The notes below the pieces were generated by a model. That model saw only the letters and a list, made by a program, of their open reading frames with translations. It was not told the DNA's origin and made no database searches. Source: a virus (lineage: Duplodnaviria; Caudoviricetes). From it: 64,000 nucleotides of DNA. The position numbers and the translations under genes were made by a program. This document shows, piece after piece, positions 18,569 to 40,700 of the stretch. The stretch lies in IMG/VR virus record IMGVR_UViG_2974731583_000001, positions 34,668-98,667 of that record; one strand, written 5' to 3'. Position 1 is the stretch's first letter; each line of letters begins with the position of its first letter.

Positions 18569-21500
18569 ATGAGTAATATACAAACACCATTAAGGCCTGT
18601 GAGTAAGATAAACTTTGCAGGCCTTGATAAACCTTCGTATACAGAACAAACCTATTTTGGACAGCGTGCATTATCTGCAAAAAGACAATATGACGAGCGT
18701 AAGAAGGCTAAGGAAAAAGAAAAGGCAGAAAGAATTGCTGCCGATAATGCGCGTATAAAAAGAAATAGGGAAATACAGCGTCGTAGATACGAACGGGAAA
18801 AACAAGAAAGCTTACAGCGTAGACGTAAGTGGGAGTTAGAAAACGAACAGGAAAAAAGAAACGCCGATGACCTATATAATAAACAAGTTACCAGTTGGAT
18901 TGACAACCAGTTTAAGAAGGTAAATATCGATCCAAATGGTGTTATAGGTAACATTGCAAAATTCGTAGGAATTAGAAACAAGCTAGCCCTCGTAGCTGAA
19001 CTTAAAAACGCTATTGGATCTCTTGCAGAAAGTAGTATAGAAGTAAACGGAGAGACAATATTTGGTAAGAAAACAGAGGCAGAGTTGAAAATAAAAGCTG
19101 CACAAGCGCACGATAAACTTGTAAACACTCGCAAGCAGTATAAAGATATTACAGACCAAATTCAAAATTTTGAGGCACAATATCTAAAACACCAAGATTA
19201 TATAAACAATCACAAAGACGACCCTTCTGTAAAAAGTATTCTAGAACAGAGAAATTTGTTACATCAGACTCAGCAGGAATTGAAACAGCAATTAAACGAT
19301 CCTACACTTGTTGGATTAGACGATTCATACAAAGAGTTTTATGTAAAAAATAAGCGTGGCATTGTGGGTAATTTGTGGGAACTTGCAAAGCAGGCGACAG
19401 ATCCAATATTAAAGGGGTGGAATCCACAGAGACTTAGACAGTATTATAAAAACAAAGTCGATGAAGAATACAACAACTACCTTGGAGAGGATATGTCTAA
19501 AAATCCAAAAGATCACCAAGAAGTAGAGCGCAGTAATACAAAAAGCATGATCAAACAAGCAAACGCAGAAATAGCCGTTTTGCAAAAAGATTATGAAGAT
19601 AATAGAAATCATTTACGAGAAAGCAAACGCTTCTGGGATGTGATGAACGGATACAAAAAGGAAACAGAAGCACATCAAAATGACCCTTTGTATAATCCAT
19701 TATATTGGCGATATGAAATGGCTCCAATGATTGGTAGCTCAATGTCGTCACCATCTCAAGCAGCAGGAACTATACTTAAAACAGCAGCTACGGTAGGAGG
19801 AACATTACTTGCTCCGTATACTGGTGGTACTAGTTTAGCTGCATTGCCTGTATCTGAAATAGCAGCTACCCCATTAGAAATAGCTGGCGGATTTGATGAA
19901 AACTATGCTGAAATTGCAACAAGACGTGCTGAAAACGTACAAGCATTACTTAAAGATGATCTGACAAAAACAGCAACAGCTGCTCAAAAAGGATATGACA
20001 GTACAATTAGCGAATTAAAAAAGAGAGACGCCGAATATTGGAAATCACAAGGATGGTCAGATAAAGAAATAAAAGATTATCTTGAAGGAGATGAAGGAGA
20101 TAAAAACGCAATACGCGATCATTTAATGGGATTTACTTCGTCTGGTAAATTTAAGCCATACAACAACCCACAATTCCAAGATGCGGTTTTAAACTCTATG
20201 CAAGGCCTGCAGGCACAATTCCAAGGAGATAATGCTCGTACTATGTATGACATTGCATTCCAAAAGATATTACTTGCAGCAGCCCCGCTAAAGTGGTTAA
20301 AGTCTTACGGCATTACTAAAAAAGCAGGTAGTACTGTTAAAGCTGCTATTTCTAATACAAAGAATGCAATATCAAAGGCAAAAGGTGCATACCTTGAAAA
20401 ATACGGAACAAAAGAACAGAAGGTTGCATCAATGCTCGGCAAGAATATAGACGACTATGAAACTTCTTCTATTGCAAAAGCTGCCGCTAAACCATATAAT
20501 GCTCCGACAGAAGCTGCAGCAGAAACTACAGTTTCTAAATATAGAAATGGTTTTAGAAAACCACAATATACAACTAAAGACGCTGTAAAAAAAGGATGGA
20601 ACATTGGTTCTGAAGTTGGAGAAATGACCGGAACTGGTGTTGTAGGACACATGGCAGGAGGAGCTCTTGGTGTTGCTGTCGGTACTGCAGGAAGAGGTGC
20701 TGTACAATTAGCAAAAAAGATGTTGCCTGCAAGAACTGCTGCCGCTCTCGAATCTATTGCAGACAAAGCTGTAATGAAATATCATACAGTACTAAATGCA
20801 ATATATGGTAATGCGCCTCTTCGAAGAACACTTACTAAATATGGTCTAAAGACACTTGGATCTCAATCTGCTGTTGCATTAAATGAATCATACGAAGAAG
20901 CTGTTCAGTCTTTAAATAGTAAAAAAGACTTTGGTTCTGAATATGGATTTGCTGGTGGAGATTTAGGTTCTCTTTTAATAAACGACGCTGCACAAGGAGG
21001 TAGAGTGTTTGACGCATATATGGCAATGCTTGGTATTGGCGAATCACCTTTAGCGAACGACATGGACTTTTTAGCAGAGGCTCGTGGTGGTGCAGCTCTT
21101 GGTTTCTTTGGATTAGGAAACGTTACGTCTGTGGTAAATGTTGGAACATCTATCAACGACGTATATAAAGAATATCAAACAAATAAGTTGTTATATACTC
21201 CGGCGATATTAAACCGCGAATATAGTAAAAAGAGTAGAGCAGCAAACGCTATATTTGCAAAAATGGCAATGCGCGGAAATTCACAACACGTTATGGAGGC
21301 TATCGAGGACATGGAGAATAGGGATCGTTATAGTGAAGATCCTACATATTCTCAAGAAGATTACGACGAGCGCAAACAAGAAATACGCCGCGTAATGAGC
21401 ATGACCAATGATACAAACATTAGAAAACTAATGGAGCAAAACGGTATTAAATATAATACTGATGAATATGCCACTGCAATTGCTGATTTAGCAAACATTG

Positions 21501-24500
21501 ATGAAGCCAGACGCGATAACAACAAGCAAAGAAAGGATGTAGATTCACGTATATAGAATATACTTGCTAGTGATGTATTTAAGAATGCTATCGATCAATA
21601 CATAGATAAAAACGTATACAATGCTCCAGAATTAGAAAGACAGCGTATTGAAGCTTCTGCACAGAAAGAGCTCCACGATCGTTTTATAAATCGAATAGAA
21701 CAGGCAGAAGAGTAGGTTATGCGAAAACTTCTAAAGGTAGAAGATGGTCAACCATTAGATAAAAACAGCAGTGAGTATCGCAAAATGCGTAGATCATCTA
21801 CATTTACTAGAAGGATGTATGAGCACTCTAGAGAGATTAAGCAGTCTTGGGAAGATGAAAAGGCTAACATAAATAAAACACTAGATACAAACTTCCGCAG
21901 ATATACTGTAGATAAAATAGCACTTGCTTCTGAATTGCGCGCACTGTTACGTTTAAAAAACAGGCATAATAAGATAGATTCTTTCTTTAATATGCTGCAA
22001 GACAGATTTAATTTAAAGGCACAGCGCCCAGATGCAGCTACTATTAGACAGAGCATAAACGAAAGAATTGATTTACTTAAGCACAAATTATCTGATGTTG
22101 TTAGTCAAACAGTAGATGAATTTGACACGGGACTTTCTGATACCGATATGCTAAAGCATATAGAATCTATGGATATAGCTTATGAAAACAGCGAACTCGA
22201 TGATCTGTTTGCCCATAGAGCGATGTTAGACGCGGATAAAAAAGTCACAGATAAATACTATAACACGTTTACAGACGGAATTGTATATCATGAAGGAAAA
22301 CCTGTATACAATCCAACGCAACGAAAAAAAGAAGATGAGCTGGATAAAAAAATAAAGACGGCAACAAATTCTGGAAACCTAGAACAGGCTCTTAATTTAA
22401 TTAAACAAAGAAACGAATTAGAGTATGATTCTGAAGGAGAGGTAAAAGAAAGACAATCATCAAAAGCTTTACGTAGAGTGCGTGCTATAATGCAGGCAGA
22501 ACAGGATAACAACGCTATCGACCACGCAATAAACGATATTGCCAGCGGAGACTTTGTTACAAAGCTATATGAAACTTTCGAAGAGGAAGAGATTGCTGCA
22601 AACGCTAAAGCAAATTCAAACGATCTTGTATCTGATGATGACATTACACGTGTTGAAACTGCTACTCCTTCTACACAAGAAACGAGTACTTCTCAAACAA
22701 ATGATCGTACATATAGATTGACAGAAGACGAGAAAAAACAGGCAAAGTCTAGAGCATTTAAGATGAAGCGTAGTAGACTTTTGAACAATATGCAAAACTC
22801 TATTAAAGACCTGTATAAAAAGTTTGGGGGTAACGCGTACATTGGATTATCTCCAGAACAACTTGCTTCGTTTGTTGCTGTTACTGCTAAAAATGCATTA
22901 CTTTCTTCTGAATATATACTTTCTTATGCTACACAAGGATTAGATAAGATAGATGAGGTTCTAGACAAAAACACATTTGTAAAAAATGCTCTAGAGTATA
23001 TTAAAACAAAAGCTTCTAGTAGAGATCAAGCTATATTAAACAAACTGTTTGGTACAGACGATAACAAAAAGCAAGAAGTTCTTACTAAAATATTAGAAGA
23101 AATGCATCCAACTTACGCAGAACAAGTAAAAGATGTACTGTTGGAAAGTATGGATGATACTACAGGAAGTACCGATGTTATAGTAAACGATACAGATAAA
23201 AACAACAATAAGTTTAATTATGACGATCTTCGTACAAACCTAGAAAAAGATTAGGAGAACGTTGATGAAGATGTATCTGGTTACTTTGATGTAGTGACAA
23301 AAGGAGATGGCAACATATATCCAAATAGATTTGCGCTAAATAACCATACAAAAGAAGTTAGTGGTATAAGAGATGCATTTATTGAAGCCCGTAAACAAAG
23401 TGATAAATTTAATGACACAGCATCTGCATCAAATGCGTTTATAAACTATCTGTTAAATGATAAAAGTATTACTGCAATATCTAGATCCGAACGCAACAAT
23501 ATAACAGATCAATAGTTTAAATAGTTTGTCGGTTCATATTTTAAATATAAAGATATACAGGGTATAGAAGACGTTTTTACAAGAGCTTTACTGTCGCTTG
23601 CTGAAACTACTACGAAGAACGATAATAATAGAAACACGCTAAAAGTTGCGGATGATGTTAAAAACGCGATATGTTCGGCACTGTCTTTAAAATCTCCAAA
23701 CGATGCTTTAAAATACAGTCTCGACCAGGTATTTAAATATGAGCATAGTGATTAGTACATTTCTGAAATTGCCACACAAGTTAAAAATGTTGAAAAATGG
23801 ATTGAGCAGCAAGGATATTCTTTAATAGATGTTTATAAAAACAACATTTATGGTTTTGTTGATGGTATCGCAACTTCTTGTATGTTAGATATACTTGCTG
23901 TAAATGAAGACGGCGATGCTATATTGATAGACGTTTATGTAACAAAAGGAGATTTAACTTTAAACAAGCTCCCGTTGGTCAGAACTGAAGAAATGCTTTC
24001 TGAGTGTGAGAAAATATTACAACAGAATTATGGCATTCGTAACGTAACTAAATATATATTACCTTTACACAGAACTTCAGTAGATATTTCTTTTTCTGGT
24101 AATACAGCAAAAGACAATATAATACCTGTTTCTGAAAATGCACAGCAGAACGAAGATCTGAGTTCGTATAAAGTAACTGCGAAAAATTTAGTAAATGCGA
24201 TAAATGAAACAATTGATAAAATCAATAGTTCATTGACCGATAAATCTAAAACCATTGCTTATGAAATGCTCGATGAGCAACCGGGCAAAAAAGAGTATAA
24301 AAATTATATAGACACTCTACAAAAGAGACTGACTCAAGTACAAAACGACCTATCTAATAAGATTGGAAAAGAAGAAGAGGTTCGTCTTGCACAAGAAGAG
24401 GTTCTTCATGAAACAGTAGATCGGGCTGATGCAACAGAATTTTATTCTATATTGCCGTATTTATTGGAGTACGGTGACGATTTAGACTCTCACGGAAAAG

Positions 24501-27500
24501 AATATCAGTTGGTTGCAAACGCGTGTGCACAGTTAGATTATATGGTCGATCGCGTTAAAAACTATAAGATTTCTTCAAACGCAAGTGGAGAAAAGCTATA
24601 GGAATACCACAAACTAATTGAAGATTTTGTATCTAGACTGCATTATGCACAGAAGTTAGTAAACAGATATATATATCACACTCTTCCTGCTAGCAATCAA
24701 CAGGACATGACTTAGGAGTTGCGATTGATTTATAACGCAATCATAATACTAAAAGACCTTCAGCATAAAAAAAATACTGGCCTTAGTAATAAAGTTCCAT
24801 ATTTCTTGATGGATACAACTTTTATTAATCTTGGAAACATACTTGGTAGTTATGTAAGAGATTCTAAAAGTGGACAACATATGTATTCAATACCAAACTC
24901 AATAAACATAATGAATGCATATACAGTATAGCTGGAAATATATATCGAACAGTTTGAAGATATGACTGAAGAAGATTTCTCTGAAAACTTCGGTGAGTCT
25001 AGAGAAATGTTTGAGTTTTATGGGTCTGTTATGAACCATAACGTAAAACAGTGTTTGGACAATGCTACGCTTTGCCTTACAGAAGCAAGTAAAATGAATT
25101 TAGATAGAGATTCAGTATTTGCATCGTCTTATCGAGATTTACAACGCACTTTACCAATATTACAGAATATATATGAAAGATTTACCGGAGAAAGAGGAAT
25201 GTTTCATAATGTAGACGATCCGTGGTATTAGGAAGCGCAAGCCGATATAAATGAGATAAATGCACTTGTTCCAGATGGTTATAACTTAAAACAATATACA
25301 GATCCTAGATCTCCATATGGAGCGTTCTATCCAGATATTTTTGCAATGCAGAAAGGTTCGTGGCAACATATGTCTAAATATCCAGACTTATTAGACGATG
25401 TAGAAATTGTTGGAGAACGTTATGTTAGAGATCCAAAAGCTAAGCCTACAACAAATAAAACTATAATACAGCTGTTCCGTAAAAAAGACGGAACTTTATG
25501 CTTATATATAGAATATAATAAGGCTAAAGATAAAACTACAGGAGAGCCACAAAAGCAGTTTGCGTATTTACCATTTACAGAATCTTTAGTAACGCCAGAC
25601 GGTGTAAAAAGAAGTGGTATATCAGAAAAGGGAATGGAAAACCTTGAGATACATGACGAAGCTATAAGAAGATTGGTTCAGTATATAAAAATTCCGTTGG
25701 ATTATGTAATAAAAAATCCGGCATACGTTCTTTCATTTTCTGTAGATTTGGATAGAGGAACTATTACGTATGATGGAGATAATTTTCACCCTATAACAGA
25801 ATTTGCATTTGCTGACAAAGAAAATGATCACAACTTGTTTGATATACAAGTTGGAACAGAACATAGAATTGGTTTTGTATCTCAATTCAAATAGGGCGAA
25901 TTTAGTAAAAAATATACTATTACTGGTACAGATTTAAAATCGTCTATTGGTTTTAGTATAAACAACACGGAGGCAGACAATCGAGGAATAATGAACGGTA
26001 ACTTGGTGTATTTCTATGCATATGATAAGAACCCAAAACACCACATTCCATTGAAGATAGAAAACGCAAAAGCTGCACCGTTTGCAGAATTTATTGCAAC
26101 CCTTGTAGGAAATATGGCTTCTGGCGATGAACGGACAAAAGAAGGATTCAAAATAGCCGATTTGTTGGATATGTTGATATATACCAAAGAACACACTCTC
26201 GACGTTGGATATGGAGACGGTGTTGTTCAGTTGAATGGTGAACGTTTTGAAAACATAAACAACGATATGGTACAAAGAAAGGCGTTCATAGAAGCTGTTT
26301 CTAAATTATATACTACCGTTACTGCAGAAATTGCAAACAGACGTCTTGGAGATCTTGCAAAAGAATCTGGTAAAATATACAGCAAAATTTATTAGCTTTT
26401 AAAGAGAAGCGGTAAAAACGAAATACAACTTCCAAACGGTCTTACTTTTACAGTAGATGACTTTGAACACGATGGACATGGTTCTACAGTTTTGGGATAT
26501 ATGTTCAGAAACAACCTGCTTGGTACAAGTGCTGTAGGAAGTGGTTATAGACAGTTGTATATAAAAGATATCAAGTTAGTTAAAGCTGCTGATATCAATA
26601 AGCCTGTAATAAAACCAAACGTTCAAGAAGAAATATCTGATGTTGCTAGTGGAAGCGATTTGGACTTTTTGTTTATGACAACCAAGTCCGCAGAAGGAAA
26701 GATTGTAAATCGAACAAAAGAAGAAGTATCTGAGTACGAAAAACTTGCAAAACAATATTTTAAACAAGTGTTTGGAGACGATGCTGGTGTAATGGTGTCT
26801 AGAGAAAATACAATATTTTTACGTACTGCTACAGAAACTCTTAGTGTTCTTGGATATTGTACATCTAAGCTTGCAGTATTATCACAACACGCTCCAGAAG
26901 AAGCAATTTGGCACGAGGCTTTCCACAGATTGATGGAGCTTGTATTGCCAGCAAACGTGCGAGACGAGTTTTATGAAAGATATAAAGCCAAATTTGGTAA
27001 CAATCTTACGGATGTAGAAGTAGCAGAAGGCCTTACTGACCTTTTTGTAAACTATAGACACAAGTTAACTACACAAGGATCTACCAAATGGTATACAAAA
27101 CTATTAAAGTGGTTTAAAGTAATTAGCGCTCAGATAGATTTAACAAAGCAAGTAGGTTTTAGAAATGCATTAAAGCTTGGAACACTGTACTATAAGTTTG
27201 AACGTGGAAAATATAAGGGTGCCAACATAGCAAAAGAAAATATAGAAAGATTTGTTAAAAAGTTTGGTGACGAGTTGCACTATGAATACAACGGAGTAAA
27301 GCTCAATAATTTCTCTACTTCAGACGATATGCATCAAATGGCGAAAGCGCTTTCATATTATATTGTAAGTAGTATTTAGCGAAACGATCCATATGTAAAC
27401 TTTAGCGTTACTGTAGATGATATGGTACTCAATCATATACCAGAAAAGACAAGACGTCAACTTATGGAATACGGTAATAACTCTTCAACACCAGAAAAGT

Positions 27501-30500
27501 TTGCTGATGTAAGAGCCGCATATAAAGAGATTTTTGAGTCTGCAGAACGTGTAAAAAAGGGTAAGGATGGAAAAGAGATAACCGAAACATATTATCCTAA
27601 GTTTGTTGCTATACAGCGAGAAGTTGCAAACAATATAGCAGCCCTTACTGGAGATTATGAAGAAAAATTTGACATAGAGAATACAGTAAGTGATGGCTAT
27701 GAGGAAGATGAACAAGGAAAGCATATCGATAAGTTTGATTCTAGTGCATACGAGTTTAACCGTTTGTCAAAAGCTGGAAAAAAAGTAAAGATGTTTTTGG
27801 CTACTATTCCTTATATGCAGAAAACAGACGGACCCAGCGGTATAGGATTTGTATTTACAAAAAATAAATACCTTTCTCCACAATATATTCCAATGCAACA
27901 GGTGTTCAACGATCTTGTTGAAAATCTTAATTACTGTACTAGTGTAGAAGAATTTGAAGATGGTCTTAAACGATTAGCAGAAATAAAACCAGAGTATAAG
28001 TATATCTTAGGAAAATACTCTAAACTGCTTGATGAAGCTTACGGTAAAAACAGAAATAGAAAAGCTATACGATATTCAGCAGAAGCATTGGCTATTTAGA
28101 TACTGTTAACTGTCCGTAGTCAAAAGATAGATTTCATATATACGTTAGGATAGGATGATACAAGACCTGGTGAAAAGCGCAATAAAAGAGCTAAGCTAAT
28201 GATAAAGCATTCAAACTCTGATAGAGACAGAACAAGATATGCATCTTCGTGGCAGAACTTTTTAAAGACTGGTCAGTCTGGTATGATAAGTCCTATACAA
28301 ACAGGAGGAATTCTTAGATTTAGCGACGCTTTTGTACGTATTGCAGCAAATAAAAACCCATTCTAGGCAATTGCTGATGAATTACAGCAAATATCTAAAT
28401 TTGTTAACATTGGAGAAAACGAAGTTTCATATACTACGTTCGATGGACAACAAGTTAGATATAATAGAAATAGTGCAGTTTCTATGAGAGCTCTAAAAAA
28501 CAGAGCTATACTTCTGATGAACTACCTTGGTATTCAAATAAATATTGATTCTTTAAATGACTATATTAACAGTAGACTCACAAACAATTTAAGATTAGAT
28601 GTAGAAGTAGACGAAGCTGGTGTGATTGGAAAATGGTTAAGTGATGCGAACGCATAGGTATTTTATACAAACATTGCAAAGTTTGCAAAACAAAGCGACG
28701 ATGGCAGTTGGAAAATATCTGTAAATGGGATTAACGCAGAAGAAAACCTATATTCAAAAAGCAGTTTTGTTCAAAACACAGCAAACTGGCATTCAGATTG
28801 GTATAGAAAATGTCATTCGCAAATGTCTTATGGATTCAATAGTAAAAAATTATATGAAATATCTCAAAACAGTGGAATATCTCATATATTAAAGCAAGTA
28901 AATTCTTGTGACGAAACAAACGAATATTTAAATACTCAATGTGGATTTAATTACAACTTGTCAAAAGACGAAAACGGAAGAGAAATTGGATCTTTAATTT
29001 TTAAGAACCGTAAGCATAATAAAATACACGCAATGACATATATTGGCTCAAAGGGTAATATGCGCGGAGATAAAGGAACAGAGTATTCTAAACAAACCTT
29101 TGTTGATGACTATTATACTAAACTTGAAGCTTTGTCAGAAGGATATTTTGTATTTCCAACTCTTTCCGATAAGAGTACTTATTTAATGTTGAGCGGAATA
29201 GATTTTCCAGGACTACATTGGACAAATAAATATGGTGCTCCATTACAAGAAATGATGCTTCCTAGTAAAGAATTCGGAGGACTTTCTTATGACTTTATTA
29301 TGTTAGATGAACAGTCTGGAGATAAGTATCGTGAGCGTATATTAATTCCTAATGTAGAGCAAGTAGATCAAATGATCGAATATGCTAAGACTGAAATGTA
29401 GGCTATCGAATCGTGTATTGAATTCATGGGCAGCGATAAGTGTAATGAAAAGACGATGATTAAAAACTACCATACTTCTGGAAACGGCCAAAGATTCTGG
29501 TCTTTAACTGAACTATGGATACCAAAGAAAATATCAGGCAGAGAAGATGGAGCACGTAAGTGGGACAGAATAAGTTTAAATAATAAAAACAAAACTCCAA
29601 AAGAGTTATTAAAATTAGCAAAAGAAAACTTCTTTGATCTTGATATAGATTCTCAGCGTTTTATCATGATTTGTACAATGCATCAACAAGTAAAAGAAGA
29701 GCTTAAAAAAAGTATTAATCTTGGCTTGATTAGTGCAGGTGACGTTTATAAGAATCATGAGTGGACACGTACACTGATGAATAAGCATTTGAACAGAGAT
29801 AAGTTGGAGTTGCTAGAAAACGCTATTGAAAAACACTACTATGGAAAAGAAGATTATTTGCCAGAGGAAAAAAGAACATCTGCTCAAGATAGACACAATT
29901 TCTGTGGACCGATTGCAATACAGTGGTATATTACCGATGTATTATATAAGTCGGTAATGTCTGCAGAAGAAACTCTTCGTGTGTTTGCTGGACATCCTGG
30001 TCAATTTAAAGTCAAGTATGATAAAGATGGTTATATAGAAGACAGTACGTTCGATATACAAAAGCGTATTGGTGGTCTTGTTTCTACTGGTGACGATAAT
30101 GCTTAGATACAAGGTTTATCTATGAAATATAGATGTGCTGAAGTAAAAGACTATGAAATAAGCTCATCTGCTGATGCAATGGCTGGTCTTGATGACATGT
30201 TTAAAACGTCACAGATAAACGATATATTTGATTAGCTTGTATTAAAACTCGATGACCACGACAAAGAAGTGGTGTACAAATATTTTGTTAGTATCGGTAA
30301 GGTTGATAAAGTTAGTATGGGTGTTGACGACGGTATAATATATGTTTTAAACAACACTACTGCTGACGAAAAACGAGCATTTGCTGAGGAATTTGATAAG
30401 CTTCTTAATACAGATATGGTCTATAAAATAGACTCTGCTGTACAAAAGGTCCATAAAATGTATACAGATTACTTAAAAGATGATGCTGTAAACGTTGCCG

Positions 30501-33500
30501 ATGGTGCTGCATATATATCGGCCGATATGTGCGAAAGAATGCTTAGGACTAGAGGAGTATATAGTGGAAAAGTAAAACAAGCTTTTGAGTTGCTTAAAAA
30601 CGGTACTGGATGGATGTCTAGCGCAGAAGCATATAAAATAATATACGATGAAATTAACGTTGTGTCTACTAAATATACAGCATATGGATTCAGACCACAC
30701 TTGTTGGCAAACGGAGATTCTGCTTCTGATGGGTATACTCAAGTTTCACCTATGGCCGTAGCGTATTATTACAAGTTTGCATTGTTCCCAATATTTGATT
30801 GTATTGCCACTGGTCCAATGGACGGCATATATAAGAAAATGCAAGCAAAAAACGTAGATATGATGCTTATGACCAGTGCTGTAAAAGTTGGATCACAGGG
30901 AGCTGTTAAATTTAACGGAAAAGAAATACCTGATGATTTTAATGTATACGAGCAAGACCTTGGATTTATAAGAAGACAGTTGGAAACAGATCCAGAAGAA
31001 GGATTCCGGTCACAACTTGGTTCTCAGATGTTAAAGATTGCGTTACAGAATCTACGTACATATAGATCCGCAGACGGAAAATACCCATATATTGCTCCAG
31101 ACGGACGTAGATTATCTGGTCGATAGGTTCTCGACAATATAATGAAGTCTATAGAAATGTTATCTTCTATTGGAGAAGAGAATCTTCTTGACAAGTTATC
31201 TACAAATGGAGAAATAGATGAGACCAAGCTCGCTAAATTTTTATATTCTCAGTTGTCTGGAAAAGGTGCAAACCAAAACCAGCTTAAAATGCTTAAGACT
31301 ACTAACGGTAAGATGAAAATTCCATTGGCTGCATCTTGTGACGCAAGCTGGATTGAAAGTATCGTACACTCTTAGGTTTATAAAAAGGTTATTGGCGTTT
31401 CTACACCAGGAACATCTTACATTCAACGTTCTGTTTTTGCAACAGAAGGTTCAGAAGCAGCGAAAAAGCTGTATAATGGAAAACCGTTGATGATAAAGAA
31501 CAACAAAAACAGCATGGACTGTGTTTTGTCTATGGATTTCTTCGATAATATTTTCTTCAAGCAGCTGCGCGGAAAATCTTTTGATCAAAAACGAAAGTGG
31601 CTTATTGATAATGGTATTATAGGAGAAGATGCAGATCCTCTTGTTATAGGATACCGTATACCTACGCAGGCTATTTCTTCTATAAGTGCATTACGTTGTG
31701 TAGATGTAATTGCTGCTACAAAGACAACAGTTGTGTTACCAAAAGAGTTTACGAAAATAACTGGATCTGACTTTGATATTGACCACTTGTATTTAGCCAC
31801 ATATAATTTTTAGATTGTAGATGGTAAAGTAACAAGGCAATTCGACCCACATCCAACTAAAAAAGTAAAACAAAAGGATGATTCTGGAAACGAGGTAGAA
31901 GTAGAAGTAAGAGATATAAACGCAGAAGAGAAATATTGGCAAAATGAGTTGTTAAATATGTACATGGCAACTCTTACAGACCACGTAAACTCTGGGCACC
32001 TACTTCTAAAATCAATCGATAACGATACAGTTCTTCCAAAAAGCGTTGCGGATTAGATAGAACCTACTGGAAGTACAAAAAGACTTGCTTATAACTTTGG
32101 ATCTTTACACGAACAAACAGATAGAAAAAATGACTATATTACTGGTAAATTTGGTATTGGCCCGTTTGCGTTAAATGTGACAAACACCGTATTGACATAG
32201 TTGTATAATGTTACATTTAGAAATGACGATGAGTTTGCAAAGGCAGCTGGAATACAAAACTTCAACTTATATATAGATAACGATGGAGACTATGTTTCTT
32301 CGTGGATGTCTGCGTTTATTAATGCTCATGTGGATATTGTAAAAGACCCGTGGATATCAAAGTTGTGTGTAAATACGTATACATATAACATGTTGAACTT
32401 GCTTATTCGTGCTGGATTTGGAGAAGCAGCTGTATGGTTTGTTTCTTAGCCTATAATAAAAGAGTTGGCTATGGCTAAAGAAAAGAAAAAGACTCGTTTA
32501 TTTTAGGGAACTGAAGATAGTAAAGTAAAGCCGTATGAAAATGCTCTTGCCAAGTTTGGTTTATTTATAAGAAGAGAAGAAATGAACCTTATAAAAGCAA
32601 TAGGTAGTGATCCGTTAAAAGCGGCTGGACTTATAAACTATAGTCGTATTGCATATGAAGAAGCAGAAAAAAACAAGGATACCAAAGAAAACAAAGACAA
32701 ATCCAATTCTTATGAAGACATCATAGGTAAATCTATGGACCCAAACGATAAAGGAGTAGCCACAGGTGTCGAAGACTTTGGAAAAGCCGTACGTGAGGTT
32801 TTAAATAATATTAGTGTTCTTAAAGAAGGCGCTATTCACGGTGTTAATGAAAATTACAAAAAAATGTAGCTTGATGTATATAAGGCTTGGGTTTTATTAG
32901 AGCCGTATGCAAATGCACTTGGAGATTTTGTACAATACACGAAAGTAGATACAAAAAAGTGTGGAAAAAGTTTTGCTGGAGTCTCTGCTTATTATAAAAA
33001 GTATAAAAGTCTTTCTGATCCAAAGACGTCTAAGTTTGATCAAGAGTCGCTTAGTCGCTTACTTCATAGTTCTTGGATAGATGCTAAAACAAACCGCATT
33101 TTTAGAATACCTCGGCGTATTTTAGGAAAACAATCTTTTTATGCAACTAACTTTGTCGATGAAATTGTATCTCGCGTTTGTACAATGAGAAACAATTATT
33201 CAGAAGATTTTGCAAAATCTGTTACACGAGCTGTAGTTACAGCATTAAAACAGCGTTATTTTGTTGACTATTATTACGATGTAAACGGGAAAACTTCAGA
33301 AACTAATATAAACGATTTATTCTTTGGTGAAAATAGTATAAATAAATAGCTTTCACAAATAATTTCTGCTATAGATACAAATCCAAAATATAAGCATTTA
33401 AAGTATAACGAACTTATATCTTAGTTGTATGCAGTGCCTAGCAATATAGTAGAAGATAGTACCACAGATTCCACATCGAGTGAGTTTACTCCAGCGTTTA

Positions 33501-36500
33501 TTACTTTAAAAAGCAACGTTGATGATAGTAAACTCAACGAAGATGATATCATAATGGGCTGGCTTTCGCTTTTACAAGACGACAATCCAGAAATAGTCAA
33601 GTTTGCAAAAAATCTTGTTATATATGCACAACTTACATCCGGAGAATACAGAAGCTGGAATAATCTTGTAAAATTTATTCCAGCTGAATGGGTCGCCGGC
33701 GAATGTGACAACGACAATACTCTTCCGTCTTTTGCAGACTGGTGCAATATGTTACTTATACGCGGTATTTATTCTGGTGGCATAGATGTTCTTATGGATA
33801 AGATTATGCAAAACAATATGGACGAAGATATGATACCAGATGTTTCACATAACAGTGATTATAGTATTAAAGACGGGGATCTAACATTTAGAGATGATAA
33901 CGAAACGGGTAAATCTCCACAAGAATACGTAATGCACGACGGAAAATTATATTCCGTATTGGTACAAACTGAGGATGGTTATATTTACGAAGAATTACCA
34001 CGTCTTGGATTTAATATAAACGGATTTCATATCTATGAATATGCATTTGACCTTCCAGAAGGTGCACACATCGAAAATAATGCAGCCGCACTCCCAGAAC
34101 AAGATTCAGAGCAGGTTTTGCCAGAAACATCACAACAAATAGATAATTCTCGTATAGCAAACGTTTTCTTTGGCGCTAAAGAAAACCCACAACTGAGTAA
34201 CTTTGCCAATAGACCGTTTAGTGCGAAATTCGGTAAGATGGAAAGCGCTAAATTCTATAACGTAGAACAGTATTTCCAAGCAACAAAAATGTTGTATATT
34301 AGAAACTACATAGAATACAAGTTTGGAAAAGATAATCCAGAAGTAAAGCAGTTATCTGCCGATATAAACAATATAATAAAGCAAATTCTTGCTACAAACT
34401 CTCCATATGTTGCAAAAGAGTTTGGTTCTACTAGAATTGGTAGTAATTTGTCTGTGGAAATACAAAACGCAATTTCTGGTTACTTGTCTGAGCATTGGGA
34501 CAAATATCGCGCTTAGGAGGTAATGTATCGTGGAATTAAGAAGTCGTTTGAACAAAACGAAGGTGCTAGAAATGAATTAACAACTAAATATAAAGATTCT
34601 ATCTTCACTCATGATGACAGAAAAGGTAATAGAAACAATCCCTGGTTGTATAAATTCCCACAACTGCTTACTTAGGTTAGAGACGAGTTCTTAAACGGCG
34701 GCTAGACCACAGGTGGTACAGGAAATATTTCCCTAAATTCTTATATTTAGGTACATAATGGCGATTGGACCAGAGAAGAAGCGGAAGACAATAACAAAAC
34801 TCTTTATATATTTACAGACAACACCGACAGAACTAGCGGTACACAAAAAGTAGATTCCCGTTCTCCGTATGCACGTAAATATGCAAATGGCAATACGTTG
34901 TATTATCCTACTAGAACCCAAGCTGTTCTTAGAGGATTACCAAATGCTATGCCAATTAGTACACAACGTTGGTATCATGAGGGAGCGAAAGGTGCTGCAG
35001 GAGTTTGGACTGATGACGCAGTAGAAGAGTTTAAGAACGTGGTTAGAGCAGAATTACAAGATATCGTTAATGAATTTAAAACAGGAAAGTACGACAAAAT
35101 TATGGTCGGAAATAAAGACGGATTCTTTAATTCTTATATCTCTGACATATCACTAGCAAGATGCCCTAAAATATATAATGCTCTTAAAGAACTGCTTATA
35201 GAATTTGGAATGGATAGTCTTGTTCCTAAAAACGATACTGCTGAACAAGCATAGTTTGATCAAAATCATTTGCTAGATCAGTCTGTTTTAGAAGATGCAA
35301 TGCAAACAGAAGAGTTTTCTGAGCGAGCAATTGAAGATTTTAATAAGAAAGTAGATCGAGGTGTTTCGTTAGAAAATGCTATAAAGAGTGTCGAACCTTT
35401 CTTTACACAAGACGAGCTTACTGAAATAGCAAAACGTGGACAGGGAGCAAAAGTGTGGGTAAAGAGTGTATCTAGACATACAGATCCTGTATTTTTTGCT
35501 AAAAAGTTCTTAGATTTTGTAAAGCAGAACGACAAAAAGCCAATGTCAGACAGCAGTAGATTCCTTGCTACAGAAATCTGGACTAAACATGATGGAGAAC
35601 CGCTTGCTCAGATACTTGAAGCATGTAAAAAGTATAGAATTGCTCCAATGGTTTCGTTTAGTATTACTGGTCTCGGTGGCGGTCCACTGGAGCCTGGTGT
35701 TATGAAGTACAACGATCTGTTAGATAGAATAGAAGCTCTTATTGTAAACGGACATCTTGATCCAAGAACTACTACTATAAGAATAGATCCGATACTCGTA
35801 GGTTATACTAAATATGAAGATATTGTAAACATAGTAACTAGATGTAAATCTATGGGAATTCATAAGTTTGTAACATCCGTGGTACAGTCATACCATTACA
35901 CTACTGGTTGGAAAGAAAGAGAAGTTGTTGGAAAGAACGGTAAACCATTTACGGTACTTGGCGATAGAAAAGTGGTAAGTGGAATAAACAACGCCCTTGC
36001 TTCTGTACAACAGCAATATAACTGGGATGAATTTTATGGTAAAATTACACAAGAAGATGTAGACGCATGGAATAAATTCAAACAAGAAAACCCAGGAACA
36101 GATGTTGTTGTAAAAGCAATACAAGCTGGTATACGATCTATTCCAACTGCAGCAAAGCTTGGACAGTATCATCATACGGTTAAACCAGAAAAGCTTAAGG
36201 AACTTGCTAATGTACTTAATGAACTTAACCAAGATCCAAATATAGAAATTGAAACATGTTCGTTCTATATACCAGGTCTTAAATATTCAGCGTGTCTTGA
36301 TCCGGATATACTTGCAGCTGCTGTAGGCACAACAGAAGGTATTATGGACGAAAGTGGCGATTATGCTAGAAACGAAACACGTCCAGAATGCTGTTGTTTC
36401 AAATATAACAGTGACTTGTTAGGATATAGCGATCAATGTCCAAGTATGTGCGCATATTGTTATGGCGGTCATTCAGACGATGTTATAGATCAACAATATA

Positions 36501-37729
36501 GATATTATGACGAAAATGGAAACTTAAAGGATAATATATTTACTAGAGTACCAACATCAAACTTTAAAGGACACGACAGAATATTTAACGCTGTTCATAC
36601 AAAAGACATCGTTATTGTTTCTGGAGGTGCTTATGGCGGTGATACGTTGTGGCACGAACGAGCTCTTGTACACGGTGCTTCTGTAAACAACATACACCAT
36701 TTAGTTGCTGCTGATAATACGCAACAAGTACCAACGAATATAAAATATTCTGCACAGATGGTATATGATTATAATGGAATGTCTAGACCAGAAGTTAAAA
36801 GTAAATCTACGTTCGACGCAATATTGAATGGAGAACGTATGGCTACGACAAGATATGCTTCATAGGGGCATCTCGACGATTGGAAATCTTTAAAGGTTGG
36901 TGACTTTGTTTCATTTAGAAGCAACGACGGAAGAAAGCTTTATGTAAGAATAACAAAAGAAGCAACTACTCTTACAAAAGACACTGACGCCGAAGAATGG
37001 TCTAAAAAAGAAGGGTGGTCTACAGAATACTATAAGAAAGAGGTTTTTGATAAACACATTAACAAAAACGACGAGGCTGTTCAAATAGAATATGTGTTAT
37101 ACAATACTACTGTTAAAGCAAAACCAACAGTGAGAAGTAAGCGCCTCATTAATGAGGGTATTTCTCCTTTTGTAGTTTCTGAGGATAGATTATAGATCGC
37201 TAGAAAAGAATTACAAAAGATTACTGGTCGTACTTATAATAACGACTATGTTGGTAATTTGCAAGCTAGAGATTATTATCAAGCTGCTTGGGCAAACGCG
37301 GTTTATGCAATTGCTCCTATAACAGGAGATAAAAAAGGCGTAAAAGGTGGAACAAATTCAGCAGTTCAAACATCAATATATCTTAACAAGCCAACATATG
37401 TTCTTGATATTGCTACAGGTAATTGGTACGTATATTCTAAGAAAGATGGTATATTTATAGAAACACAAACACCAACATTGTCTAATAGATCTGCTCTTGT
37501 TGGATCTAGAACATTAGAGAAATATTCTAAAAAGGATAAAGATGGAACGTATAAAACTACAGATGTACTTGGCGAATATATAGGAGACGATGCAGTTAGG
37601 GCGCTTGTAAAAAAGGTAGATGAAGTATTTGATAAAACTGAGAAAAAAGCCAGTCTTTATGACAAATTACAAATAACTGAAGAAATGGCTATAAAAGCAG
37701 AAGAAGTTAAAAAACATTGTAAAAATTAA
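18569..37729 (+). CDS. Giant virion-packaged RNA polymerase polyprotein, 6,386 aa, about 37 in-frame TAG
   Basis: All 22 + strand track ORFs in this frame from 18569 to 37729 join up; gaps contain TAG only. crAss vRNAP motifs: ADGAAYIS, PGTSYIQRS, GYRIPTQ, catalytic GSDFDID (DFDID 31769-31783), GKFGIGPFALN, FINAHVDIVKDP, FVS*PIIKEL. Zincin HEAFH at 26912-26926. Confidence 0.9.
34150..34690 (+). other. NADAR (YbiA-like) domain within the vRNAP polyprotein
   Basis: LSNF...PF; F.NVEQYFQA.K; IL.T.SP..AK..G; WD.....VM..G.K..F.QN......L; W...F..LL..VR is the NADAR motif series. Confidence 0.75.
35450..36480 (+). other. DUF1848-like (radical-SAM-related) domain within the vRNAP polyprotein
   Basis: SRHTDP; WTK; FSITG.G...LEPGV; IRIDPI; IETC; CLDP; R.ECCC...D...Y..QCPSMCAYCY, with CxxxCxxC at 36437-36460. 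Confidence 0.7.
36600..37640 (+). other. SLOG-superfamily domain interrupted by an ASCH-like domain (~36745-37100)
   Basis: SLOG halves IVSGGAYGGDTLW ... ARD.......VYAI.......GGT..AV......KP..V.D. Insert FDAILNGERMATTR...LKVGD.V.F......YVRITK...W..KEGW is an ASCH signature. Confidence 0.65.
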
Positions 37730-37734
37730 TAAAT

Positions 37735-40700
37735 ATGATATTTTGTCCTAATTTAAAAAACAAGGTTGTAGGAAAAGAATTTAAAAAACTTACAGATGTA
37801 CTTGGAGAAGACCTAGCATATCTTCTATGGGATAAAACAAATGGCGAAGGAGTCCTCTACGATGAGTAGGGGAATCTCCTTTAGTCATATAAGAAGATAT
37901 TAGATCGTGCTAACGGAGACGAGGAATCTGCTATAATAGCTATTGCGGAAACTATAATAAATGGTACTCCAGACACAGAGTTAAAAACAGGAAAGTTTTT
38001 AAACTATTACGATTATCAGAAGGCGTATATTGAAAAGTTTATGCCAAAAATCAGAATGAATTTGAATAATTCTGAAATCAATGAGGTTGAAGATCAAATT
38101 GTGTTTAATAGAATTTCTGACCTTCTTGGTGTAGAAGCTGCGGATTCATTTCGTTATTATGTACACGAAAACATTGACGATCTGTCTAACAAGGTGTTTT
38201 CTATATCTGTAGATAAGAACAACCTTCCAGATTATTCCAAAGATGTTCGTACTAACAAGATTACAGAGTTGGCTCGAATCTGGTTAAATACAGAGTATTT
38301 TAATAATATTCTTCCAGAACAGCTTCAAAACCTGCGTAACAAATGGATAGATGGCGGAAAAGTTATATCATATCCTGAAATGTTTATATCGAACATAATA
38401 AACTCTATTAAACATTCAGATATAAATGAATATGATCAGACTACACAAGATATAATAAACAACGCTTGTATAATATCATATCGCGCTTCGTTCAACGATA
38501 TTAAATAGAAAAGCCAACGTTTTGGTAAATTAAAACACGATATTTCAGACAAAGAAAGTAAGTTTTATAAATCTTTATTCGATGCAATAAAGCAACACAA
38601 CACCAATATTTTCAGTACAAAACGTGCGTATGACGAACGGCTACGTTTACAATTAGAATATAAAGCCAATTCAGATTTACATAAGCAATTTATAAATTAC
38701 TTATCAAAAAGTTTGGCTAATTATTATTCTGCAAAACAAAGAAAATCGCAATGGAATGTTATAACTAGCCCCACCAAGATGAGTTTAAAGTAGGTGCTTA
38801 CTAGTATAGCAAAAGATCCAGAATATAAAATATATAAAGATCTGTGTGAAAGGTTATCTAAAATGTCTGGTGATATTGAAATATTATTCGACAGAATAGA
38901 TTCCGATGCTACCTTTGGTCGACACCTATATACAAAAAATAAAAATTCAGAAAAAATTACTAAGATAATAATAGATGTTTATAAAACTAGACTAACCCCA
39001 CACGAACAAATACAGACTATATTGCACGAAATCGTTCACGCCGCCACTATAAATTATTTAGTAGACCATAAAGAATTGTCACAAAAGTTAAAAAAATATA
39101 TAGATTATATAGTTAGTGCCAATTCCAACTCGTTGTTTTACATGTTGTCTGATGTTTATGGGTTTAAAAATGAAAGAGAATTTATTGCTGAATTTTTCGC
39201 CAACCCAATGTTTCGCGAAAGTTTAAAGTATATGGAGCCAATGGAAGGCGGAGAATTTAAATCTCTGTTTCATTAGATTATAGATTTTATACTTTCTTTA
39301 TTTGGTTATAAAGATAAATCCGGTAGTGTGTATGATCAAATAAGTCCTATAATGGAATATATATTAGACGAAGGAATTTCATATGGTTCTTTAGTTCAAT
39401 ATAACCCAATTAAACATGCAGAATTTGAACTCATACGTAGTAATTTACAAGCATAGAAATCAACTATAAAAAGCTCTATAGATCGTCTAACTTCTGCATA
39501 CAAGCGTAAAACAAAAACAACGGCGTTAGATGAAGATGTAAAACAACATTTATTCTTTTTGCAGTGTAAATTAAAAAGCTTAGATGATACTGAAAGTAAA
39601 ATCGAGGTTCTTAGAGTTTTTGTTGAAGATATTATTGGCGATATTAGAACACCAAAAAGTTGGTCTGGTAAATATTTAGAAAAAATACAACAATGGGAGG
39701 ATGATACTAATTTTGAACATGTAACTCCATCAGATATTGTAGATGTCTATGAAAATGTAATATGTATATTAAATCTGTTTATTGGTGATACTGGTGTTAT
39801 ACGTTCACAAGATATAGACTTTGATGAAAAAGCCGAAAAAAACTTTGACTCTCTTAGAAAGGCAAAAGATAAGATTTACGACGTTTGGGCTCATGCGACA
39901 CACGAAGTTAGTAGTAGAATAGTAGACGATTTTGTTGATAATTATGCTGACGCAGTAACCGAAGACCGCGAGGGTATGAAACAAGTAACAAAAGACTGGT
40001 TGTTCAACAGTATAATGTTTAATGACTTTGGTGGCGTTGTTGCATTTTTATATAACTACGCGAATTCTCCAAACCCTGTTATCAAACAGATATTCCATTT
40101 AATACAAACAAAAGAATCATTAACTGAATAGGAATTTGCAGAAATAATAAGACCAATCGAACGTCTGATGCACAAACACGACAATATGTTTAGCAGAAAA
40201 AAACATAATGTTGCAAAATTGATTGCAGAAAAAGATGCAAACGGTTAGTTTACTGGATATTATGTTACCGAAGCAAATCGCGGTGAATGTGAAAGAGTTG
40301 TTGAATTGCGTACAGAACAATTTCGCAATAAATTTATGGAAGACCATAAGTTTACAAACAGTTTTGGCGATACTATTTACCCATTCTATATGCAGGAAGA
40401 TGGAAAATGGCTTCTTGTATAGAAGGTAGTAGATAAAGACGGCGATGTTACATTTATAAGGGAAGATGCTTTTTCACACAGAACTTCTCAATGGGTTCCT
40501 GTTGGTGGATCTTATTCTTGGTCTCCAACTGACGCTCCATTGTTTGTACAGTATATGCTCGGCATTGAAAAGATTAAAAGTGAAGAATATGATCGTCGTT
40601 ATACTTTTAATTATTATAGTGAACGTTTAAGTCCACCATATCATGAAAAATATTGTCCTGATGGACACGGTTTGTCTCCTGACACTTTAGCAAAATATAA

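What the first reader, a model, noticed from the sequence alone, without database searches (positions are those of the whole stretch)
34150..37729. Injected toolkit: NADAR + uncharacterised alpha/beta domain + DUF1848 + SLOG(ASCH) array fused to the virion RNAP C-terminus
Seen: after the RNAP core come a NADAR domain (34150-34690), a domain with LYIFTDN..RTSG...TQAVLRGLPNAMPIST (34740-35210), a DUF1848-like domain with CxxxCxxC, and a SLOG domain. Established: NADAR enzymes remove guanine ADP-ribosylation (DarT1-type toxins); SLOG and ASCH domains bind or process nucleotides and modified bases. Inference: a modular cassette co-delivered with the genome to repair or demodify incoming DNA, or to neutralise nucleotide-based host defences before any phage gene is expressed. 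This would be a virion-delivered anti-defence polyprotein that code-11 annotation misses.
Basis: partly seen in the sequence, partly recalled or inferred. Interest (0 to 1): 0.8.

Follow-up and report, generated by a model that had tools for sequence, protein, structure and literature searches.

The report
Swappable enzyme tail on crAss-phage polymerase
The last ~1,200 residues of a 6,386-residue crAss-like phage RNA-polymerase polyprotein hold four or five intact-looking nucleotide- and ADP-ribose-handling enzyme modules that are shuffled, gained and lost between related phages, which fits a pre-made counter-defence kit, although delivery and activity are untested.

Summary
Observation confirmed. 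With TAG read as a sense codon, window 18569-37729 is one 6,386-aa ORF. The genome carries its own tRNA(CUA). The ORF has the crAss RNAP motif DFDID.

Its C-terminal ~1,190 aa contain:
- a gp30.3/AdfN-type NADAR with the catalytic E/K/H present;
- DUF7831;
- DUF1848, with an invariant CX3CXYC and four more invariant Cys;
- one SLOG domain, split exactly by an ASCH-like insert.

The tail search retrieved 137 giant proteins. In the 121 analysed, the same modules occur in 54 different orders, often with SF1 helicase and sometimes with ART-PolyVal or Kinase-PolyVal domains. Strains 93-95% identical in the rest of the tail differ by clean deletion of the DUF7831 module, or of DUF7831 and ASCH together.

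Delivery into the host and anti-defence function remain inference. They fit the published polyvalent-protein and virion-packaged NADAR/Macro/SLOG concepts.

The protein is not hidden: a 99%-identical protein of phage cr272_1 is in public databases, without functional analysis. This scan had already noted extra tail domains on another crAss giant RNAP (e1-4711982).

Verdict: a new variant of a known kind, of moderate interest.

The parts
18569..37729 (+). Giant virion-RNAP polyprotein ORF: 6,386 aa with 37 in-frame TAG read as sense
   Evidence: tRNA(CTA) lies at genome 12606-12679, outside the window. P0003 is 97% identical over the whole tail query (residues 5130-6386), is 6,372 aa long and represents a cluster of 115 sequences.
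31769..31783 (+). DFDID catalytic motif of the crAss two-barrel RNAP (residues 4401-4405)
   Evidence: The motif is as described for phi14:2 gp66 (bioRxiv 10.1101/2020.03.07.982082).
34157..34615 (+). NADAR domain of the gp30.3/AdfN type. Catalytic Glu at 34265-34267, Lys at 34286-34288, last-strand His at 34610-34612.
   Evidence: Pfam, PHROG and NCBIfam hits. E, K and H are conserved in 67/69, 69/70 and 66/67 aligned homologues. Homologue P0124 hits both NADAR (35.9 bits, over the cut-off) and Phage_30_3 (31.7 bits, under its cut-off of 36).
34724..35242 (+). DUF7831 module (173 aa), present or absent between near-identical strains
35444..36487 (+). DUF1848 module: a radical-SAM-like barrel with a C-terminal Cys cluster (CPSMCAYC at 36437-36460)
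36587..36724 (+). SLOG domain, N-terminal piece (SGGAYGGD loop)
   Evidence: SLOG-family HMM positions 18-61. DprA and ShosA hits.
36722..37126 (+). ASCH-like (PUA-like) module inserted into the SLOG domain, present or absent between strains
   Evidence: Exactly deleted in P0005-P0009. Sub-threshold ASCH hits covering profile positions 7-99 of 103. Conserved NGERxATTR, W and GD motifs.
37133..37711 (+). SLOG domain, C-terminal piece (GGTN loop plus the family-specific TPTL...GSR extension)
   Evidence: SLOG HMM positions 62-251, E 2.2e-54. PHROG_768 DprA-like. 38% identity to a contiguous copy inside the N4-type vRNAP of Klebsiella phage Pylas.

Best explanation
The window comes from a pig-gut crAss-like phage (Buhlduvirus, Oafivirinae). 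It is about 99% identical to cr272_1 over the 371-residue stretch compared. The phage reads TAG as a sense codon in its late genes.

The last ~1,190 residues of its 6,386-aa virion-RNAP polyprotein form a polyvalent-protein-type accessory cassette:
- a gp30.3/AdfN-type NADAR;
- DUF7831, possibly macrodomain-like;
- DUF1848, a radical-SAM-like barrel whose CX3CXYC cluster motif sits at the C-terminus;
- a cpYpsA/DprA-like SLOG domain carrying an inserted ASCH-like module.

Shown here: the domains are present, their key residues are under strong conservation, and the cassette is recombined at module level among relatives.

Inferred: like the RNAP-associated cargo proteins of phi14:2 and crAss001, the polyprotein is packaged, possibly after cleavage by its own zincin, and is ejected ahead of or with the DNA. 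The enzymes would then be present before any phage gene is expressed.

Most likely activities:
- NADAR removes ADP-ribose from guanine in incoming DNA, countering DarT1-type toxins.
- NADAR, SLOG and DUF7831 together bind or degrade ADP-ribose-derived immune signals.
- The ASCH-like and DUF1848 modules act on modified or damaged nucleic acid.
For: Frame and decoding
- One ORF under TAG=Q, with a phage-encoded suppressor tRNA.
- The DFDID motif is present, and the ORF is homologous to annotated crAss giant CDSs.

Domain identity and conservation
- Profile hits for all modules.
- NADAR E/K/H are conserved, with His in the last strand as in phage NADARs (PMC11125620, PMC11543638).
- DUF1848 has seven invariant Cys, including CX3CXYC.

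Modularity
- 54 module orders among 121 giants. Of the 100 that carry DFDxD, the cassette lies after the motif in 87 and before it in 13.
- DUF7831 and ASCH are exact presence/absence polymorphisms between strains 93-95% identical in the rest of the tail.
- Relatives add ART-PolyVal, Kinase-PolyVal, LPD23, PDDEXK, DUF4326 and SF1 helicase domains.

Link to virion delivery
- The same SLOG family sits inside the unrelated N4-type virion RNAP of Klebsiella phage Pylas.
- The phi14:2 RNAP is translocated into the host. The RNAP-associated proteins of crAss001 were detected in virions by mass spectrometry (bioRxiv 10.1101/2020.03.07.982082; PMC10172136).

Functional precedent
- T4 gp30.3 (AdfN) counters DarTG1 (PMC11825919).
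- NADAR, Macro and SLOG are predicted to be virion-packaged and co-fused in DNA viruses (PMC9503650).
Against: - There is no direct evidence that this tail is in virions, or that it remains attached after the proposed polyprotein cleavage.
- Cargo proteins are thought to pass through the tail partly unfolded (PMC10172136). An Fe-S cluster in DUF1848 would be lost and would need reloading in the host.
- DUF1848 is the most conserved module among the retrieved giants, and 71 of 120 carry an SF1 helicase. That pattern looks more like a core nucleic-acid function linked to transcription than like a variable counter-defence gene.
- The NADAR Pfam score is 0.5 bit below the gathering cut-off, and its AlphaFold model was poor.
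- SLOG and ASCH rest on sub-threshold profile hits.
- In vitro NADAR activity does not guarantee protection in vivo (PMC11125620).
Confidence: 0.55

Rival explanations
1. The tail is a transcription-coupled nucleic-acid processing unit of the virion RNAP, not a counter-defence kit. DUF1848, with the SF1 helicase found in relatives, would prepare or repair the DNA template. NADAR, SLOG, DUF7831 and ASCH would process RNA 5' ends or NAD/ADP-ribose-linked nucleotides made during early transcription. This parallels the Macro and NADAR domains embedded in RNA-virus replicase polyproteins.
For: - DUF1848 is present in 112 of 121 retrieved giants, with about 80 near-invariant residues.
- SF1 helicase domains occur in 71 of 120.
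- The phi14:2 RNAP transcribes single-stranded or denatured DNA in vitro (bioRxiv 10.1101/2020.03.07.982082), so template-opening helpers are plausible.
- NADAR and Macro domains sit in RNA-virus polymerase polyproteins (PMC9503650).
- ASCH domains were originally linked to RNA metabolism.
Against: - Module-level gain and loss between near-identical strains, and 54 module orders, are typical of conflict genes rather than core machinery.
- cr130_1 and cr131_1 lack DUF1848, and cr273_1 lacks the whole set.
- Relatives carry ART-PolyVal and Kinase-PolyVal effector domains.
- The closest characterised NADAR, AdfN, is a counter-defence enzyme.
Confidence: 0.25
2. The tail acts in the producing cell late in infection and is not delivered. 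It could modify or proof-read phage DNA before packaging, or be cleaved off by the zincin and left behind.
For: - The gene lies in the late, TAG-recoded operon, so it is made only late.
- The polyprotein is proposed to be cleaved (bioRxiv 10.1101/2020.03.07.982082).
- An Fe-S enzyme would work better in the cytoplasm where it was matured than after being ejected unfolded.
- PADLOC's RTasDUF1848 model (DRT class) matches the tail, and a DUF1848 protein cluster accompanies methylase-fused UG25 reverse transcriptases (bioRxiv 10.1101/2021.12.02.470933), which hints at a role in DNA modification.
Against: - Fusion to a packaged protein is the simplest route into the virion.
- The same SLOG family is embedded inside an N4-type vRNAP that is injected as one chain.
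- All three RNAP-associated giant proteins of crAss001 are in virions (PMC10172136).
- Phage NADAR, Macro and SLOG are argued to be needed at the very start of infection (PMC9503650).
Confidence: 0.15
3. The domains are decaying passengers with no present function.
For: - Several profile hits are weak.
- Modules are easily lost between strains.
Against: - Catalytic and ligand-binding residues are nearly invariant across dozens of homologues at 30-50% identity.
- The only in-frame stops are TAG.
- The DUF7831 and DUF1848 models have high pLDDT.
Confidence: 0.03

Closest known systems
Giant protein of uncultured phage cr272_1 (UniProt A0A7M1RU68; Buhlduvirus porcinus, Oafivirinae, Crassvirales)
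   Same: 99% identical over the 371-aa NADAR+DUF7831 stretch. This is evidently the same or a near-identical phage and gene.
   Different: The public name is only 'NTF2 domain-containing protein'. I found no functional analysis of the tail.
cr130_1 gp79 (5,801 aa, 'DprA-like DNA recombination-mediator protein') and cr131_1 gp50/gp48
   Same: crAss giant RNAP proteins with NADAR, DUF7831 and SLOG in the tail, 35-41% identity.
   Different: In cr130_1 the order is RNAP-SLOG-NADAR-DUF7831, with no DUF1848 and no ASCH. In cr131_1 the gene is split and only NADAR-DUF7831 follows.
Polyvalent proteins of phages and conjugative elements (Iyer et al. 2017, PMC5512222), including the N4 virion RNAP
   Same: Large virion-associated polypeptides that string together many enzymatic domains in lineage-variable orders and are predicted to be injected with the DNA. 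Relatives of this protein carry the ART-PolyVal, Kinase-PolyVal and LPD23 hallmark domains.
   Different: The carrier is the two-barrel crAss RNAP polyprotein. The module set (NADAR, DUF7831, DUF1848, SLOG, ASCH) is not mentioned in that paper's text. The window's own protein has none of the PolyVal hallmark domains.
T4 gp30.3 = AdfN, the anti-DarT NADAR (PMC11825919; PMC11125620)
   Same: NADAR with catalytic Glu and Lys and the phage-type His in the last strand. Homologue P0124 hits the Phage_30_3 profile (31.7 bits, under its cut-off of 36).
   Different: AdfN is a free-standing protein, and the passages I read say nothing about packaging into virions. Here the domain is fused to a virion polyprotein. 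Activity is untested.
Virion-packaged or fused NADAR/Macro/SLOG/Nudix sets of DNA viruses (Iyer et al. 2022, PMC9503650)
   Same: Co-occurrence and fusion of NADAR with SLOG, and possibly with a macro-like domain, encoded among morphogenesis genes.
   Different: That survey's text does not mention crAss-like phages or virion RNAPs. DUF1848 and ASCH are additional here.
Radical-SAM enzymes (PFL-activating enzyme, spore photoproduct lyase and others)
   Different: The cluster motif lies at the C-terminus rather than after beta-1, so the fold is apparently permuted. There are four further invariant Cys. No biochemical data exist for DUF1848.

Membership tests
crAss-like virion RNAP polyprotein | DFDxD catalytic motif in a giant late-gene product that is homologous to annotated crAss RNAP giants | tested here: met
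   DFDID at residue 4401. tblastn shows 31% identity over about 4,000 aa to cr130_1 gp79.
crAss-like virion RNAP polyprotein | Presence in virions and ejection into the host | not testable with these tools
   Known only for phi14:2 and crAss001 (bioRxiv 10.1101/2020.03.07.982082; PMC10172136).
NADAR (PF08719) | Significant profile match | tested here: met
   Pfam E 2.8e-8, 34.6 bits, which is 0.5 bit under the gathering cut-off. PHROG_1017 gives 1.8e-10 and TIGR02464 gives 5.5e-7. Homologue P0124 scores 35.9 bits, over the cut-off.
NADAR (PF08719) | Catalytic Glu and Lys (E43 and K50 of P. nicotianae NADAR) plus an E/D/H residue in the last strand | tested here: met
   E5233, K5240 and H5348 are conserved in 67/69, 69/70 and 66/67 homologues. 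The definition comes from PMC11543638 and PMC11125620.
NADAR (PF08719) | YbiA fold | tested here: inconclusive
   The AlphaFold model of this part had pLDDT of about 40-85.
NADAR (PF08719) | Guanine-ADP-ribose hydrolase activity or DarT1 rescue | not testable with these tools
   Needs biochemistry.
DUF7831 (PF25176) | Profile match over the gathering cut-off | tested here: met
   30.8 bits against a cut-off of 27. BFVD structural matches to DUF7831 proteins of giant viruses and phages, E 7.5e-8 to 2.4e-4.
Macrodomain | Macro fold with an ADP-ribose pocket | tested here: inconclusive
DUF1848 (PF08902) | Profile match over the cut-off, plus the C-terminal Cys cluster | tested here: met
   54 bits against a cut-off of 30.5. 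PADLOC RTasDUF1848 4.6e-21. C830, C834 and C837 (tail numbering) are invariant, as are four more Cys.
Radical SAM superfamily | CX3CX(aromatic)C motif binding a [4Fe-4S] cluster | tested here: met
   CPSMCAYC. All three Cys are conserved in 112/112 and the Tyr in 111/112. Cluster binding itself is untested.
Radical SAM superfamily | Cluster motif in the loop after beta-1 at the N-terminus of the barrel | tested here: not met
   The motif lies at the C-terminal end of the module. Structural alignments begin after the N-terminal cluster loop of the radical-SAM chains, for example 3c8f 61-245 and 4fhc 124-341.
Radical SAM superfamily | Partial (beta/alpha)6 TIM barrel | tested here: inconclusive
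SLOG superfamily (DprA / cpYpsA-like) | Profile match | tested here: inconclusive
   All hits on the window's own sequence are sub-threshold: DprA Pfam 6e-4, TIGR00732 9e-4, PHROG_768 3e-6, ShosA 3e-4. cpYpsA hits 3 of 15 homologues, and P0146 is over the cut-off.
SLOG superfamily (DprA / cpYpsA-like) | Two Gly-rich nucleotide-binding loops (GGxxGxD, and GGT later) | tested here: met
   SGGAYGGD and KGGTNSA are conserved across the family.
ASCH (PF04266) | Profile match over the cut-off | tested here: inconclusive
   The window's module gives E 0.054, 14.6 bits against a cut-off of 21.2, but covers profile positions 7-99 of 103. ASCH is the only family that recurs, in 5 of 17 homologues.
Polyvalent proteins (Iyer 2017) | Many unrelated enzymatic domains in one polypeptide, with architectures that vary between relatives | tested here: met
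   54 ordered architectures among 121 giants, and strain-level module indels.
Polyvalent proteins (Iyer 2017) | Hallmark PolyVal domains (ART-PolyVal, Kinase-PolyVal, LPDs) | tested here: not met
   None in the window's protein. They are present in relatives P0014, P0017, P0018, P0027, P0032, P0036, P0044 and P0122.

The most novel reading that the evidence does not exclude
DUF1848 is a circularly permuted radical-SAM enzyme that crAss-like phages attach to their virion RNAP polyprotein. With the NADAR, macro-like DUF7831 and SLOG modules it would form a pre-made, ejected set that erases ADP-ribose marks and signals and processes damaged or modified DNA or RNA at the moment of entry. This would be the first Fe-S radical enzyme delivered through a phage tail and a new branch of polyvalent effectors built on a two-barrel RNAP.
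Probability: 0.15. Interest if true: 0.8.

Novelty: new variant of a known kind. Interest (0 to 1): 0.55.

Why it matters
Crassvirales are reported to be the most abundant phages of the human gut, and they also occur in the guts of other mammals. How they cope with Bacteroidales defences is almost unknown.

If the tail is delivered with the RNAP, these phages bring ready-made enzymes against ADP-ribosylation and NAD-derived signalling, and they exchange those enzymes as modules between strains. That would link strain-level variation in a single gene to host range.

The finding also gives concrete, clonable candidates for three families without a known function (DUF1848, DUF7831 and this SLOG clade). 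Natural variants with and without DUF7831 and ASCH are available for comparison.

Tried and rejected
Searches that gave nothing useful
- phmmer of the tail, and hmmsearch with profiles of the SLOG, ASCH-like and DUF7831 alignments, against PDB sequences found nothing meaningful.
- Foldseek against the PDB with the NADAR+DUF7831 model gave no hit at E below 1e-3.
- VIA-wide on that model was filled by the poorly modelled helical NADAR part, so it says nothing about DUF7831.
- The single-sequence scan of viral contigs found no locus.

- The look-up of encoding contigs refuses proteins over 5,000 aa, so the strain-level indels were checked at protein level only, not DNA level.
- Searching the genome with the ASCH Pfam model gave no hit.

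Analyses that were uninformative or discarded
- hhalign of A1 against A4 matched only because some A1 members carry an extra SLOG domain. It does not bear on a DUF7831-SLOG relationship.
- The mixed alignment A2 was misaligned and was dropped.
- The module junctions carry no direct repeats.
- A suspected 'DUF7831 inserted in SLOG' architecture in P0013 was not confirmed by the full SLOG HMM.
- cr273_1 looked like the same phage because its capsid protein N-terminus is 100% identical, but its giant protein lacks the whole cassette.
Full report
**What is there**

Under code 11 the + strand between 18.5 and 44.6 kb is a string of short ORFs. With TAG read as a sense codon it becomes one ORF, 18569-37729, of 6,386 aa with 37 in-frame TAG. 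A second ORF of 2,281 aa follows it.

TAG occurs inside the long + strand (late) ORFs and is almost absent from the - strand (early) genes. The complete 98,667-bp genome has direct terminal repeats, and the window is its positions 34668-98667. The genome encodes a tRNA with anticodon CTA at 12606-12679.

The ORF carries DFDID at residue 4401, the catalytic motif of the crAss two-barrel virion RNAP. The capsid protein is 84-87% identical to those of annotated crAss-like phages of the Oafivirinae (cr131_1, cr130_1) and other crAss-like records. A BFVD entry of uncultured phage cr272_1 (Buhlduvirus porcinus) is 99% identical over the stretch tested. The gene product therefore already exists in public databases, named only 'NTF2 domain-containing protein'.

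**The domains**

Profile searches on the last 1,386 aa gave these results.

| Module | Evidence |
|---|---|
| NADAR | Pfam E 2.8e-8, 34.6 bits vs cut-off 35.1; PHROG_1017 1.8e-10; TIGR02464 5.5e-7 |
| DUF7831 | Pfam 30.8 bits vs cut-off 27 |
| DUF1848 | Pfam E 2.9e-14; PADLOC RTasDUF1848 4.6e-21 |
| SLOG | DprA 6e-4; PHROG DprA-like 3e-6; ShosA 3e-4 |

*NADAR.* Across 68 homologous giants the NADAR keeps Glu5233, Lys5240 and His5348 in 67/69, 69/70 and 66/67 sequences. These are the catalytic Glu and Lys defined on the P. nicotianae and E. coli C7 NADARs, plus the last-strand His that marks phage gp30.3-type NADARs (PMC11543638, PMC11125620). T4 gp30.3 is AdfN, which has been shown to neutralise DarTG1 (PMC11825919). 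Homologue P0124 hits both the NADAR profile (over its cut-off) and the Phage_30_3 profile (31.7 bits, under its cut-off of 36).

*DUF1848.* In 112 homologues about 80 positions are near-invariant. They include seven Cys and the motif CPSMCAYC, that is CX3CX(aromatic)C, together with a GG..EP loop. The AlphaFold model has pLDDT 82 and pTM 0.84. Foldseek matches it only weakly.

An all-against-representatives structural search puts radical-SAM enzymes at the top:
- then SkfB, anSME, MoaA, LipA, HemN and BioB.

*SLOG and ASCH.* An HMM built from contiguous homologues matches the window's protein in two pieces. HMM positions 18-61 match residues 6007-6052, and positions 62-251 match residues 6189-6381. 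In relative P0005 the same HMM matches as one piece.

The 136-aa insert is ASCH-like. The window's module hits Pfam ASCH at E 0.054, covering profile positions 7-99 of 103. ASCH is the only family that recurs among its homologues. An exhaustive search found 718 proteins related to the SLOG and ASCH-like modules, many of them thousands of residues long.

**Variation among relatives**

A tail-directed search returned 137 proteins of 3,500-7,100 aa, mostly from contigs of about 90-100 kb. Of the 121 I analysed, 100 have DFDxD. In those 100 the modules lie after the motif in 87 and before it in 13. Counting only the five modules plus the RNAP motif, there are 54 different orders.

Precomputed Pfam annotation adds further domains in these giants:
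- SF1 helicase domains in 71 of 120;
- ART-PolyVal in 7;
- Kinase-PolyVal in 2;
- PDDEXK in 5;
- LPD23, DUF4326, cpYpsA, and RNase H with HATPase in a few.

The architecture seen here occurs only in P0001 and P0003. P0003 represents a cluster of 115 sequences.

Within this cluster the variation is at the level of whole modules. P0004 lacks exactly residues 5386-5558 (DUF7831). P0005-P0009 lack that block and also residues 6052-6186 (ASCH). The rest of the tail stays 93-95% identical.

The GenBank relatives differ again:
- cr130_1 has the order RNAP-SLOG-NADAR-DUF7831.
- cr131_1 has a split gene with only NADAR-DUF7831.
- cr273_1 has none of these modules.

Retrieval was biased towards DUF1848, so its frequency of 112 in 121 should not be read as universality.

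**Link to virion delivery**

The phi14:2 RNAP is translocated into the host with the DNA. Its neighbouring gene products are virion proteins. In some phages the three are fused into a polyprotein that is probably cleaved, and one part carries a zincin protease (bioRxiv 10.1101/2020.03.07.982082). In crAss001 the three RNAP-associated proteins were detected in virions by mass spectrometry, and they are thought to leave the particle partly unfolded (PMC10172136).

Independently, the N4-type virion RNAP of Klebsiella phage Pylas (3,819 aa) contains a contiguous copy of the same SLOG family, N-terminal to its polymerase domains, at 38% identity. Two unrelated kinds of injected RNAP have thus acquired the same module.

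None of this shows that this particular tail is packaged.

**Interpretation**

The best reading is a polyvalent-protein-type cassette (PMC5512222) built on the crAss RNAP polyprotein. Its content matches the NADAR/Macro/SLOG sets that Iyer et al. predicted to be virion-packaged and to act against ADP-ribose-based immunity (PMC9503650). I found no paper that describes this for crAss-like phages. DUF7831 appears in no paper of the library, and DUF1848 in three papers, the one I read mentioning it only in passing.

Three points weigh against a pure anti-defence reading. DUF1848 is strongly conserved. Helicases are frequent in relatives. An Fe-S cluster would be hard to carry through ejection in an unfolded state. 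Two rivals therefore stay open: a transcription-coupled processing role, and a role in the producing cell late in infection.

An earlier follow-up in this scan on another genome (e1-4711982) also remarked on extra enzyme domains at the tail of a crAss giant RNAP.

Noticed in passing
genome G000 12606-12679 (+), outside the window: A tRNA with anticodon CTA, which ARAGORN calls tRNA-Pyl. It is the likely amber suppressor that lets the late genes be read through TAG.
   Followed up: partly
genome G000 193-562 (-), outside the window: ARAGORN calls a permuted tmRNA with tag peptide GNINVVDYTGLQEAA. This may be a false positive and was not examined.
   Followed up: no
window 955-2478 (+): The first 340 aa of the major capsid protein are 100% identical to cr273_1 (Buhlduvirus animalis). 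The giant RNAP proteins of the two phages share only 20-29% identity in the core and nothing in the tail. This points to strong mosaicism between the capsid and transcription modules.
   Followed up: partly
L003 (Klebsiella phage Pylas NC_049444) about 11800-12400, vRNAP residues about 980-1155: An N4-type virion RNAP carries an unannotated contiguous SLOG domain of the same family as the window's, N-terminal to its polymerase domains.
   Followed up: partly
window 37735-44580 (+): The next ORF is 2,281 aa with 18 TAG and has no Pfam hit. It is presumably the second giant protein of the transcription block.
   Followed up: partly
proteins P0010, P0014-P0018, P0032, P0071, P0072, P0079, P0119: In some giant homologues the accessory modules lie N-terminal to the DFDxD motif rather than after it. 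The position of the cassette within the polyprotein is therefore itself variable.
   Followed up: partly
BFVD hits A0A6N1NMG5, A0A5K0U977, A0A3G5ADK8: DUF7831 also occurs as a small standalone protein in giant eukaryotic viruses (Tupanvirus, Yasminevirus, Hyperionvirus), so the family spans both phages and NCLDVs.
   Followed up: no
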